IMG/VR virus record: IMGVR_UViG_2529292913_000008
Length of the DNA: 64,000 bases
Source: a virus
Taxonomy: Duplodnaviria > Heunggongvirae > Uroviricota > Caudoviricetes
Strand: one strand, 5' to 3'
Positions 2,675 through 4,960 of the stretch are shown here, in pieces. Made by a program: the position numbers and the translations under genes. The notes beneath the pieces were generated by a model that saw only the letters and a program-made list of their open reading frames with translations, made no database searches and was not told the origin of the DNA. Position 1 is the stretch's first letter, and each line of letters starts with the position of its first letter.

Positions 2675-3208
2675 ATGCCTGCCCGCATTCCTCTCGATCC
2701 TGTATTGCCCAAAAATTTTGACTGCACTCCTAACGAGAAACGCTCTAAAGCTCAGTTGGACGCCTGGTGGGACCATCCATATGGGGTTACACAACCTGAC
2801 GGGAAAATTGTAGTTTATTGTCTGAATGGTGGGGCGTGGGACCGTCCATCCGTGCTTGGTTTGGCAAATAACTATGATGAAGCCTGTGAACTTGCCGAAA
2901 GACAGCAGGCAAGCTGGGTAAAAACACGTTATGAACCGACATTCATGTTTTCAAAAGAACCGCCATTTATACTGGCGAGGATGCCGCAGCGACCGGATCA
3001 TCAACAAGAAATTGTTGCTGAATTTTCCTCTAGGGATGAGATGAATCTCTTCTCATTAAAGCAGGAAGAAAGGGATCGCGTCGAAGTGTCTCCAACTCTC
3101 GACCACAACCGGATGAACCTGGCCCAACTCGCCTGGTACAGCAAAGAATTAGAGATGTCTATTGCCCGACTTGAAAACGAAAAAGCCGCTATCCAAGCCC
3201 AGCACTGA
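2675..3208 (+). CDS. hypothetical protein, C-terminally truncated by IS10 (last 17 codons displaced to 4543-4597)
   Basis: ORF reads through the junction into the first base of IS10 then stops; original frame resumes after the 9 bp duplication and ends TGA at 4595-4597. Confidence 0.6.
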   Translation: MPARIPLDPVLPKNFDCTPNEKRSKAQLDAWWDHPYGVTQPDGKIVVYCLNGGAWDRPSVLGLANNYDEACELAERQQASWVKTRYEPTFMFSKEPPFILARMPQRPDHQQEIVAEFSSRDEMNLFSLKQEERDRVEVSPTLDHNRMNLAQLAWYSKELEMSIARLENEKAAIQAQH

Positions 3209-4533
3209 GAGATCCCCTCATAATTTCCCCAAAGCGTAACCATGTGTGAATAAATTTTGAGCTAGTAGGGTTGCAGCCACGAGTAAGTCTTCCCTTGTTA
3301 TTGTGTAGCCAGAATGCCGCAAAACTTCCATGCCTAAGCGAACTGTTGAGAGTACGTTTCGATTTCTGACTGTGTTAGCCTGGAAGTGCTTGTCCCAACC
3401 TTGTTTCTGAGCATGAACGCCCGCAAGCCAACATGTTAGTTGAAGCATCAGGGCGATTAGCAGCATGATATCAAAACGCTCTGAGCTGCTCGTTCGGCTA
3501 TGGCGTAGGCCTAGTCCGTAGGCAGGACTTTTCAAGTCTCGGAAGGTTTCTTCAATCTGCATTCGCTTCGAATAGATATTAACAAGTTGTTTGGGTGTTC
3601 GAATTTCAACAGGTAAGTTAGTTGCTAGAACCCATGGCTCCTTTGCCGACGCTGAGTAGATTTTAGGTGACGGGTGGTGACAATGAGTCCGTGTCGAGCG
3701 CTGATTTTTTCGGCCTTTAGAGCGAGATTTATACAATAGAATTTGGCATGAGATTGGATTGCTTTTAGTCAGCCTCTTATAGCCTAAAGTCTTTGAGTGA
3801 CTAGATGACATATCATGTAAGTTGCTGATAGGTTTCCAGTTTTCCGCTCCTAGGTCTGCATATTGTACTTTTCCTCTTACTCGACTTAACCAGTACCAAC
3901 CCAGCTTCTCAACGGATTTATACCATGGCACTTTAAAGCCAGCATCACTGACAATGAGCGGTGTGGTGTTACTCGGTAGAATGCTCGCAAGGTCGGCTAG
4001 AAATTGGTCATGAGCTTTCTTTGAACATTGCTCTGAAAGCGGGAACGCTTTCTCATAAAGAGTAACAGAACGACCGTGTAGTGCGACTGAAGCTCGCAAT
4101 ACCATAAGTCGTTTTTGCTCACGAATATCAGACCAGTCAACAAGTACAATGGGCATCGTATTGCCCGAACAGATAAAGCTAGCATGCCAACGGTATACAG
4201 CGAGTCGCTCTTTGTGGAGGTGACGATTACCTAACAATCGGTCGATTCGTTTGATGTTATGTTTTGTTCTCGCTTTGGTTGGCAGGTTACGGCCAAGTTC
4301 GGTAAGAGTGAGAGTTTTACAGTCAAGTAATGCGTGGCAAGCCAACGTTAAGCTGTTGAGTCGTTTTAAGTGTAATTCGGGGCAGAATTGGTAAAGAGAG
4401 TCGTGTAAAATATCGAGTTCGCACATCTTGTTGTCTGATTATTGATTTTTCGCGAAACCATTTGATCATATGACAAGATGTGTATCCACCTTAACTTAAT
4501 GATTTTTACCAAAATCATTAGGGGATTCATCAG
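3205..4533 (-). mobile_element. IS10 (IS4 family), complete 1329 bp, flanked by 9 bp target duplication AGCCCAGCA
   Basis: termini CTGAGAGATCCCC (3205) and GGGGATTCATCAG (4521-4533) match IS10 inside/outside ends; identical 9-mers at 3196-3204 and 4534-4542. Confidence 0.95.
3218..4426 (-). CDS. IS10 transposase
   Basis: 402 aa MCELDILHDSLYQFCPELHL..., matches IS10/Tn10 transposase as recalled. Confidence 0.95.
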   Translation of the reverse strand: MCELDILHDSLYQFCPELHLKRLNSLTLACHALLDCKTLTLTELGRNLPTKARTKHNIKRIDRLLGNRHLHKERLAVYRWHASFICSGNTMPIVLVDWSDIREQKRLMVLRASVALHGRSVTLYEKAFPLSEQCSKKAHDQFLADLASILPSNTTPLIVSDAGFKVPWYKSVEKLGWYWLSRVRGKVQYADLGAENWKPISNLHDMSSSHSKTLGYKRLTKSNPISCQILLYKSRSKGRKNQRSTRTHCHHPSPKIYSASAKEPWVLATNLPVEIRTPKQLVNIYSKRMQIEETFRDLKSPAYGLGLRHSRTSSSERFDIMLLIALMLQLTCWLAGVHAQKQGWDKHFQANTVRNRNVLSTVRLGMEVLRHSGYTITREDLLVAATLLAQNLFTHGYALGKL

Positions 4534-4597
4534 AGCCCAGCATGAAGTAGTTCTGAACCGGATTAGAGAAATGCAAAACGATAACAGGGGATTTTGA

Positions 4598-4960
4598 ATG
4601 GCTAAAATCGAGTACCATCGCGATCGCGGTAATTACCTGGAAATATACGATCATGAATCTCTTAACGATATCAACGATGCGTTATATGAATACTGTGAAA
4701 AAATGAGCATCACAGATGCACCTGACGCATTTGTCGAGCTACCGGTATATCTCCGCGACATCTATGCAATACGGACGCCGCCCGTATCGGTAATTCACAT
4801 TGGCTATGTCCGCCTGTCCATCGAAGAAGATGAAGATCGTTATATCGTACGCCACTATACATTGGACAGAAAAGAGCTTCCCAATGAATGGAACATGAGT
4901 AATTTCTACAACGGTGAATATGGCTTAAAACCCGCTATGAATGGCGCGGGCATTGCGTAA
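4598..4960 (+). CDS. hypothetical protein (120 aa), second gene of the IS10-disrupted pair
   Basis: ATG at 4598 abuts the original stop of the upstream gene (TGAATG); AGGGGA at 8 nt; 65 bp outside the IS10 outside end. Confidence 0.6.
   Translation: MAKIEYHRDRGNYLEIYDHESLNDINDALYEYCEKMSITDAPDAFVELPVYLRDIYAIRTPPVSVIHIGYVRLSIEEDEDRYIVRHYTLDRKELPNEWNMSNFYNGEYGLKPAMNGAGIA

What the first reader, a model, noticed from the sequence alone, without database searches (positions are those of the whole stretch)
2675..4960. IS10 truncates one gene and points its outward promoter at the next
IS10 sits 3 nt before the natural end of a 195-codon gene, removing only its last 17 codons, with a clean 9 bp duplication. 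The transposase start is at the 4533 end, so that is the outside end. From general knowledge of IS10, the outward promoter pOUT fires across that end, here toward the 120-codon gene at 4598, which starts 65 bp away and was originally coupled to the upstream stop (TGAATG).
Basis: partly seen in the sequence, partly recalled or inferred. Interest (0 to 1): 0.5.

Follow-up and report, generated by a model that had tools for sequence, protein, structure and literature searches.

The report
IS10 insertion in P1-plasmid lxr gene
A standard copy of the jumping gene IS10 has landed near the end of a dispensable, DNA-damage-regulated gene (lxr) on a P1-like phage-plasmid of E. coli DEC7C, with its known outward promoter facing the next small gene; this is an ordinary, textbook kind of insertion whose effect on expression has not been measured.

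Summary
A complete 1329-bp IS10 lies at 3205-4533, 100% identical to many plasmid copies. It has a 402-aa transposase on the minus strand and a 9-bp duplication, AGCCCAGCA. Removing it in silico restores a gapless match to an IS-free sister plasmid that carries an intact 194-aa + 120-aa gene pair joined by TGAATG.

The disrupted gene is phage P1 lxr ("LexA regulated function"; upf94.2 in P7). It loses 17 residues of a predicted C-terminal helix. Rfam places RNA-OUT at 4419-4488 on the + strand, so pOUT does point at the 120-aa gene (ATG at 4598). No terminator-like site lies between them.

What pOUT actually does here is inferred from the literature, not shown.

- The operon is SOS-controlled, so the IS probably replaces LexA control with weak constitutive transcription.
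- IS10 also has outward promoters at its inside end, which would read antisense into lxr.
- The target is a near-consensus IS10 hotspot.
- lxr is non-essential and often broken in nature.

The insertion appears private to E. coli DEC7C. Both proteins remain of unknown function. This is ordinary and of low interest.

The parts
2111..2500 (-). humD (UmuD'-like S24 peptidase), divergent neighbour that shares the regulatory region with lxr
   Evidence: Pfam Peptidase_S24; annotated humD in P1 and P7 at the matching position
2520..2539 (.). LexA box TACTGTTCATTTATACAGCA between humD and lxr
   Evidence: Read. The same site is annotated 'LexA binding site in the regulatory region of lxr and humD' in the P1 record. 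The CTGT-N8-ACAG motif is also found upstream of the intact gene in L005
2675..3208 (+). Truncated lxr (177 aa; native 194 aa). The last codon and the TGA stop are completed by the first 4 bases of IS10
   Evidence: About 96.5-97.9% DNA identity to lxr of P1 and upf94.2 of P7. EHV87559.1 is named 'lxr domain protein [E. coli DEC7C]'
3196..3204 (.). Left copy of the 9-bp target-site duplication AGCCCAGCA
   Evidence: The core GCCCAGC matches 5 of 6 positions of the Tn10/IS10 hotspot GCTNAGC
3205..4533 (-). IS10, complete, 1329 bp. Inside end at 3205, outside end at 4533
   Evidence: 100% identity over the full length to many plasmid copies. It is the only copy in the window
3218..4426 (-). IS10 transposase, 402 aa, intact
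   Evidence: ORF list; Pfam DDE_Tnp_1 1.5e-24; NCBIfam IS4 transposase 4e-121
3304..3534 (-). Region corresponding to IS10 nt 1000-1230, reported to hold the outward promoters pIII and OUTIIp. Here they would read across the inside end, antisense to lxr and toward humD
   Evidence: Coordinates converted. Promoter location taken from PMC11481808 and PMC4574204. Not tested here
4406..4411 (+). Likely -10 hexamer of pOUT (TAAAAT), 7 nt upstream of the RNA-OUT 5' end
   Evidence: Read. This is an inference from the position of RNA-OUT; the simple promoter scan did not flag it
4419..4488 (+). RNA-OUT antisense RNA (IS10 nt 115-46), the product of pOUT, directed toward the outside end
   Evidence: Rfam RF00240, 98.8 bits, E 2e-19, full model length; the hairpin is recovered by folding
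4511..4533 (-). Outside-end terminal inverted repeat of IS10
   Evidence: Exact match to CTGATGAATCCCCTAATGATTTT; comparison of the two ends
4534..4542 (.). Right copy of the 9-bp target-site duplication AGCCCAGCA
4543..4597 (+). Orphaned 3' remnant of lxr (17 codons + TGA). It carries the Shine-Dalgarno sequence (AGGGGA, 4583-4588) of the next gene
   Evidence: The restored ORF translates to the 194-aa protein
4598..4960 (+). 120-aa gene of unknown function (homologue of P7 upf93.6; PHROG 5797), the gene that pOUT faces
   Evidence: The exact protein occurs in 377 index blocks of the collection, and directly follows an intact 194-aa gene in all 10 places shown
4972..5223 (-). hot (homologue of the DNA polymerase III theta subunit), convergent with the 120-aa gene
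   Evidence: Pfam DNA_pol3_theta 2.6e-32; P1 annotation

Best explanation
A single, intact, canonical IS10 transposed into a near-consensus IS10 target site close to the 3' end of lxr. lxr is the LexA-regulated accessory gene of a P1-like phage-plasmid, here in E. coli DEC7C.

Shown:
- The insertion cuts 17 residues off the predicted C-terminal helix of Lxr.
- It separates the downstream 120-aa gene from lxr by 1338 bp.
- It places the pOUT/RNA-OUT unit of IS10 on the same strand as that gene: the transcript starts 179 nt upstream of the ATG, and the IS end lies 64 nt upstream.

Inferred:
- Transcripts from the SOS-controlled lxr promoter now enter 1.3 kb of untranslated IS10 sequence, antisense to the transposase gene, and largely fail to reach the 120-aa gene (polarity).
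- A fraction of pOUT transcripts reads through the outside end and gives weak, LexA-independent expression of the 120-aa gene from its own ribosome-binding site.
- The inside-end promoters (pIII/OUTIIp) may add antisense transcription across the truncated lxr toward humD.
- The event is most likely a recent, unselected insertion in a dispensable gene of a known variable region.
For: Structure: IS10 ends, 9-bp duplication and intact 402-aa transposase; 100% identity to other IS10 copies.

Empty site: in-silico excision gives a gapless 1563-nt match, 99.94%, to NZ_CP122822.1, which has the abutting 585-nt and 363-nt CDSs. The two plasmids are otherwise colinear at >=99.8%, apart from IS content, one inverted IS421 and a 12-bp hsdS repeat. 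This points to a recent event.

Identity of the gene: lxr/upf94.2, with the annotated LexA box.

Orientation: RNA-OUT at 4419-4488 on the + strand. No + strand terminator-like site before 4598. The leader 4489-4597 is C-poor (18 C of 109), so a poor Rho-loading site.

Literature: pOUT read-through into neighbours at about 10% of PlacUV5, with IS10-mediated activation of acrEF and cat. Outward promoters at the inside end.

No need for selection: the target matches 5/6 of the hotspot, and only 0.44% of window positions score that well. lxr is non-essential for P1 lytic growth in a CRISPRi screen. The hot-lxr region is a known variable region of P1-like plasmids. Many frameshifted or truncated lxr alleles exist in public data. 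The truncated protein is found on only 3 contigs of a 15-billion-protein collection.
Against: No expression data are available. RNA-OUT is mostly a discrete 70-nt species, so read-through may be small. The predicted fold of the pOUT leader pairs the Shine-Dalgarno AGGGGAU with AUCCACCU of IS10 (nt ~44-52), which could limit translation. The simple promoter scan did not flag pOUT, so its activity is assumed from sequence identity with canonical IS10. Polarity of the IS on lxr-promoter transcripts is assumed from general knowledge of Tn10/IS10 insertions, not measured. The orientation has a 50% prior by chance. The functions of Lxr and the 120-aa protein are unknown, so no phenotype can be predicted.
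Confidence: 0.7

Rival explanations
1. Plain polar knock-down. The insertion simply inactivates the operon. Truncated Lxr is non-functional, and the 120-aa gene is effectively silent because pOUT transcripts end as 70-nt RNA-OUT and the few read-through RNAs are poorly translated.
For: RNA-OUT matches the full-length discrete Rfam model ending at 4488, 45 nt inside the IS. The predicted leader structure sequesters the SD. lxr is non-essential and often pseudogenised, so loss of the whole operon is tolerated. P1 itself lacks the 120-aa gene.
Against: Read-through from pOUT into adjacent genes is documented. There is no terminator-like site after RNA-OUT. The distance to the ATG is short and the leader is C-poor.
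Confidence: 0.22
2. Adaptive rewiring. The insertion was selected because constitutive, LexA-independent expression of the 120-aa gene, or loss of the Lxr C-terminus, benefits the plasmid or its host.
For: The orientation is the one that allows pOUT-driven expression. Only the last 17 residues of Lxr are removed, and the downstream gene with its SD is left untouched. The junction is seen in read sets from 2010-11 and 2022 by accession series.
Against: The exact truncated protein occurs on only 3 contigs, probably all from one strain. No other record in three collections carries the junction. The target is a near-consensus hotspot, which explains the position without selection. The function of the 120-aa protein is unknown.
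Confidence: 0.06
3. Artefact: an assembly error, or an IS10 hop during laboratory storage or culture of the strain rather than in nature.
For: IS10 transposes readily in laboratory culture (PMC4574204). The insertion is private to this strain.
Against: A clean 9-bp duplication and a complete element show a true transposition event, not a misassembly. The left junction appears in two separate read assemblies. A hop in culture cannot be excluded, but it would still be a real insertion.
Confidence: 0.02

Closest known systems
IS10 (IS10-Right of Tn10; named ISVsa5 family in RefSeq annotation), IS4 family
   Same: Length 1329 bp, terminal repeats, 402-aa DDE transposase with its ATG at nt 108, RNA-OUT at nt 115-46, Dam GATC sites at nt 67-70 and 1320-1323, and a 9-bp duplication at a GCTNAGC-like target. 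It is 100% identical to many sequenced copies.
   Different: Nothing in the element itself. It is a solo IS, not part of a composite Tn10 within this 64-kb window.
Documented IS10 pOUT activation of neighbouring genes: Tn10 insertions in the his operon (Ciampi et al. 1982), acrEF in Salmonella (Olliver et al. 2005) and cat in pSU vectors (PMC4574204)
   Same: The outside end of IS10 faces a same-strand gene a short distance away, so pOUT read-through can transcribe it.
   Different: In those cases expression and a selected phenotype were measured. Here there are no expression data, no known phenotype and no sign of selection. Also, the target gene already had a promoter of its own (LexA-controlled, via lxr), so the effect would be a swap of control rather than activation of a silent gene.
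lxr of phage P1 and the upf94.2-upf93.6 pair of phage P7
   Same: Same position between humD (with its LexA box) and hot. DNA identity is 96-98%. P7 and the IS-free plasmids have the same 194-aa + ~120-aa abutting pair.
   Different: Here lxr is interrupted by IS10. P1 itself lacks the 120-aa gene: homology breaks at window ~4580 and resumes at ~4981.

Membership tests
IS10 (IS4 family insertion sequence) | 1329-bp element with imperfect ~23-bp terminal inverted repeats (outside end CTGATGAATCCCCTAATGATTTT, inside end CTGAGAGATCCCCTCATAATTTC) | tested here: met
   3205-4533 is 1329 bp. The whole element is 100% identical to other copies.
IS10 (IS4 family insertion sequence) | Single DDE transposase of 402 aa starting near the outside end | tested here: met
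   ORF 4426..3218 is 402 aa. Pfam DDE_Tnp_1; NCBIfam transpos_IS4_2 at 404 bits against a cutoff of 152.
IS10 (IS4 family insertion sequence) | 9-bp target-site duplication at a site resembling NGCTNAGCN | tested here: met
   AGCCCAGCA is duplicated. It matches 5/6 of the consensus, and only 277 of 62,656 window positions score >=5. The consensus itself is from established knowledge (Halling & Kleckner 1982, cited in PMC4574204).
IS10 (IS4 family insertion sequence) | Antisense RNA-OUT overlapping the transposase start and directed toward the outside end | tested here: met
   Rfam RF00240, 98.8 bits, 4419-4488 on the + strand; it overlaps the ATG at 4426 on the opposite strand.
pOUT-driven expression of an adjacent gene | The outside end faces a gene on the same strand, with no terminator in between | tested here: met
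   RNA-OUT and the 120-aa gene are both on the + strand. No + strand terminator-like site lies in 4419-4598. The scan is only a simple consensus scan.
pOUT-driven expression of an adjacent gene | Transcripts that start at pOUT and extend into the neighbouring gene; expression that depends on the IS | not testable with these tools
   Needs RNA-seq, 5' RACE or a reporter fusion. Only literature precedent is available.
P1 lxr (LexA-regulated function) | Sequence homology to P1 lxr and a position between humD and hot, downstream of the shared LexA box | tested here: met
   96.5% DNA identity to P1 over humD-lxr. The annotation of the P1 and P7 loci matches gene for gene. The LexA box is at 2520-2539.
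P1 lxr (LexA-regulated function) | Actual repression by LexA and induction by DNA damage | not testable with these tools
   Only the operator sequence is seen. Regulation is taken from the P1 record's annotation.

The most novel reading that the evidence does not exclude
The IS10 insertion converts an SOS-gated accessory gene of a phage-plasmid (the 120-aa protein of unknown function) into a constitutively expressed one, and this gives the plasmid or its host a selectable trait. In addition, the conserved N-terminal domain of Lxr may be a regulator that heads small operons with exchangeable cargo: the 120-aa gene here, a HEPN/Toprim protein in Klebsiella phage-plasmids and a resolvase in Pseudomonas plasmids. 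Clipping its C-terminal helix would then alter that control.
Probability: 0.06. Interest if true: 0.4.

Novelty: already known. Interest (0 to 1): 0.12.

Why it matters
It matters little. This is a correctly read example of how an IS can truncate one gene and supply a promoter to the next, in a variable, non-essential region of a P1-like phage-plasmid. Its only wider use would be as a natural handle on two uncharacterised P1-family genes, lxr and its 120-aa neighbour. DEC7C and the near-identical IS-free ETEC1731 plasmid form a ready-made pair for testing what SOS control of this operon does.

Tried and rejected

2. Function of the 120-aa protein. There are no family hits. Only about 16 close homologues were found. 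The AlphaFold model is poor (pLDDT 59.7), so it was not used for fold search. An exhaustive profile search found a small family of 100-123-aa proteins, plus weak multi-stretch hits to giant BspA-type LRR_5 proteins. I treat those as repeat-summed and inconclusive.

3. Linkage of the two genes. The Salmonella homologue of the 120-aa gene follows unrelated genes, so the pair is not an obligate module.

4. LexA boxes upstream of distant Lxr homologues: none found.

5. The same insertion elsewhere. It is absent from 5,426 complete E. coli genomes, PLSDB and INPHARED.

6. The classic papers (Simons 1983; Ciampi 1982; Martinez-Garcia 2003; Olliver 2005; Lobocka 2004) are not held in the library. They are cited only through papers that were read.

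7. A second IS10 or a composite Tn10 in the window: none.
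Full report
**What is there.** The window is a 64-kb piece of a P1-like phage-plasmid. It is 100% identical to contig AIGC01000010.1 of NCBI assembly GCA_000249735.2. The truncated protein is deposited as 'lxr domain protein [Escherichia coli DEC7C]'. The genes around the finding are pdcB-like/DUF968, doc, phd, humD (minus strand), then the disrupted gene, a 120-aa gene, hot (minus strand) and a type IC hsdMSR system.

The closest public record is plasmid unnamed6 of porcine ETEC1731 (NZ_CP122822.1). It is colinear with the window at 99.8-99.99% over the 48 kb compared. 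The differences are IS content, one inverted IS421 and a 12-bp repeat in hsdS.

**Checking the observation.**
- IS10 occupies 3205-4533 (1329 bp). The outside-end repeat matches exactly at 4511-4533, and this is the only copy in the window.
- The transposase ORF (4426..3218, minus strand, 402 aa) is intact and matches DDE_Tnp_1 and the IS4 transposase models.
- The whole element is 100% identical to copies in many plasmids.
- The 9-bp direct repeat AGCCCAGCA flanks it at 3196-3204 and 4534-4542.
- Removing the IS and one repeat copy restores a 1563-nt gapless match (one mismatch) to the IS-free relative. There a 585-nt CDS (194 aa) is directly followed by a 363-nt CDS (120 aa).
- The truncated ORF encodes 177 aa, so 17 residues are lost. 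Its last His codon and its stop are completed by the first four IS10 bases.
- The next gene starts at 4598, 65 nt after the last IS base, in the context TGAATG.

The insertion is 55 nt before it. The left junction is also present in two Logan read assemblies, so it is not a misassembly.

**What the genes are.** The disrupted gene is lxr of phage P1 ('LexA regulated function'; upf94.2 in P7), at 96-98% DNA identity. The P1 record annotates a LexA site 'in the regulatory region of lxr and humD' at the position of window 2520-2539, TACTGTTCATTTATACAGCA.

The 120-aa gene corresponds to P7 upf93.6. P1 itself lacks it: homology to P1 stops at window ~4580 and resumes at ~4981, inside hot. The exact 120-aa protein occurs in 377 index blocks of the collection. 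In all ten places shown it directly follows an intact 194-aa gene.

Neither protein has a known function:
- No Pfam, NCBIfam or PADLOC match was found. The PHROG matches (6164 and 5797) have unknown function.
- No PDB sequence relatives were found.
- Lxr models well (pLDDT 87.9) as an alpha/beta domain (1-131) plus a 45-residue C-terminal helix (149-193). The IS removes residues 178-194 of that helix. Fold searches returned nothing meaningful.
- The 120-aa model is poor. An exhaustive profile search gave only a small family of similar-sized proteins, plus weak, repeat-summed hits to giant LRR_5 proteins.

**Direction of pOUT.** Rfam finds a full-length RNA-OUT (RF00240, 98.8 bits) at 4419-4488 on the + strand. 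Counted from the 4533 end, the transposase ATG is nt 108 and RNA-OUT runs from nt 115 to nt 46. This matches what I recall of IS10-Right, which is my own knowledge. So pOUT fires toward 4533 and onward to the + strand gene at 4598.

Several features are compatible with read-through:
- No + strand terminator-like site lies between them.
- The 109-nt stretch from the RNA-OUT 3' end to the ATG is A/U-rich and C-poor.
- The gene keeps its AGGGGA Shine-Dalgarno sequence, which lies in the orphaned lxr remnant.

Papers read here state that IS10 pOUT transcripts can extend into neighbouring genes at about 10% of PlacUV5, and that IS10 insertions have activated acrEF and cat (PMC9330008, PMC4574204).

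1. The operon is SOS-controlled. After the insertion, transcripts from the lxr promoter must cross 1.3 kb of untranslated IS10, antisense to the transposase gene, to reach the 120-aa gene. From general knowledge of Tn10/IS10 polarity, most will not. The likely net effect is replacement of LexA-gated expression by weak constitutive pOUT transcription, not activation of a silent gene. This is inference.
2. IS10 also carries outward promoters near its inside end (pIII and OUTIIp, within nt 1000-1230; PMC11481808 and PMC4574204). Here that is window 3304-3534 on the minus strand. They would read antisense through the truncated lxr toward the LexA box and humD.
3. The predicted fold of a pOUT-initiated leader keeps the RNA-OUT hairpin but pairs the SD (AGGGGAU) with AUCCACCU of IS10 nt ~44-52. 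This could limit translation. It is prediction only.

**Is selection needed?** No.
- The target core GCCCAGC matches 5 of 6 positions of the IS10 hotspot GCTNAGC. Only 0.44% of positions in the IS-free window, and 2 of 942 in the operon, score that well.
- lxr was non-essential in a P1 CRISPRi screen (PMC10695390).
- The hot-lxr segment is one of eight known variable regions of P1-like phage-plasmids (PMC9603915).
- Public data contain many frameshifted or internally deleted lxr alleles.
- The exact truncated protein is on only three contigs of a 15-billion-protein collection.
- No record in 5,426 complete E. coli genomes, PLSDB or INPHARED has the junction.
- The orientation has a 50% prior.

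Near-identity to the IS-free sister plasmid indicates a recent event.

**Verdict.** The element is canonical IS10, and promoter donation by pOUT has been known since the early 1980s. This particular insertion is a private, probably neutral event in one strain. Novelty: already known. Interest: low (0.12).

The most novel reading not excluded is an adaptive switch of an SOS-gated accessory gene to constitutive expression, possibly tied to a regulatory role of the Lxr N-domain family. I put its probability at about 0.06.

Noticed in passing
window 8470-8505 (within hsdS, 7909-9177): The type IC HsdS has three tandem 12-bp repeats encoding TAEL. The otherwise identical HsdS of the closest plasmid (NZ_CP122822.1) has two. 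From my own knowledge, this is the EcoR124 versus EcoR124/3 type of variation, which changes the spacer length of the recognition sequence, so the two sister plasmids probably differ in restriction specificity.
   Followed up: partly
window 9239-12415; 33361-33362; 44893-46263: Apart from IS10, the window differs from its 99.9% relative only by IS content. hsdR is intact here but split by IS1203 in the relative. An IS91 insert is present only in the relative. An IS421-like element is inverted between the two.
   Followed up: partly
window 46420-46594 (-): A hok/sok-type antitoxin RNA (Rfam sok, 114.9 bits) lies next to the IS421-like element. It is an extra addiction module alongside phd-doc (1437-2044). 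I do not recall hok/sok in the P1 reference genome.
   Followed up: no
window 50049-50254 (-); 25967-28398 (-): The window has the P1 immI elements, C4 antisense RNA and its a1/b1 targets, and three tRNA genes. This confirms the P1-family identity of the replicon.
   Followed up: no
L018-L021 (4001-5763) and L022-L025 (4001-5040): Stand-alone homologues of the Lxr N-terminal domain (130-135 aa, 52-59% identity) sit directly upstream of a HEPN/Toprim protein in Klebsiella phage-plasmids. In Pseudomonas plasmids they overlap the start of a serine resolvase. This suggests that the domain heads small operons with exchangeable cargo. No LexA box is present there.
   Followed up: partly
proteins P0036, P0043, P0054, P0057, P0075, P0099, P0118, P0072: There are many naturally frameshifted, internally deleted or fused lxr alleles. 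One has 93 member sequences, and one is a read-through fusion of Lxr with the 120-aa protein. lxr seems to decay often in P1-like plasmids.
   Followed up: partly
window 4484-4491 and 4583-4589 (+): In the predicted fold of a pOUT-initiated transcript, the Shine-Dalgarno sequence of the 120-aa gene pairs with IS10 nt ~44-52. This long-range helix exists only in the IS-bearing allele.
   Followed up: no
window ~4580 to ~4981: Phage P1 lacks the 120-aa gene. Homology to P1 breaks about 17 nt before the lxr stop and resumes inside hot, so the 120-aa gene is a ~400-bp indel module. Its Salmonella homologue sits behind unrelated genes on ccdAB-bearing plasmids.
   Followed up: partly
proteins P0134-P0176: A profile of the 120-aa family gives weak multi-stretch matches (E 1e-9 to 1e-4) to very large BspA-type leucine-rich-repeat (LRR_5) proteins. 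It is not resolved whether this is remote homology or repeat-summed noise.
   Followed up: partly
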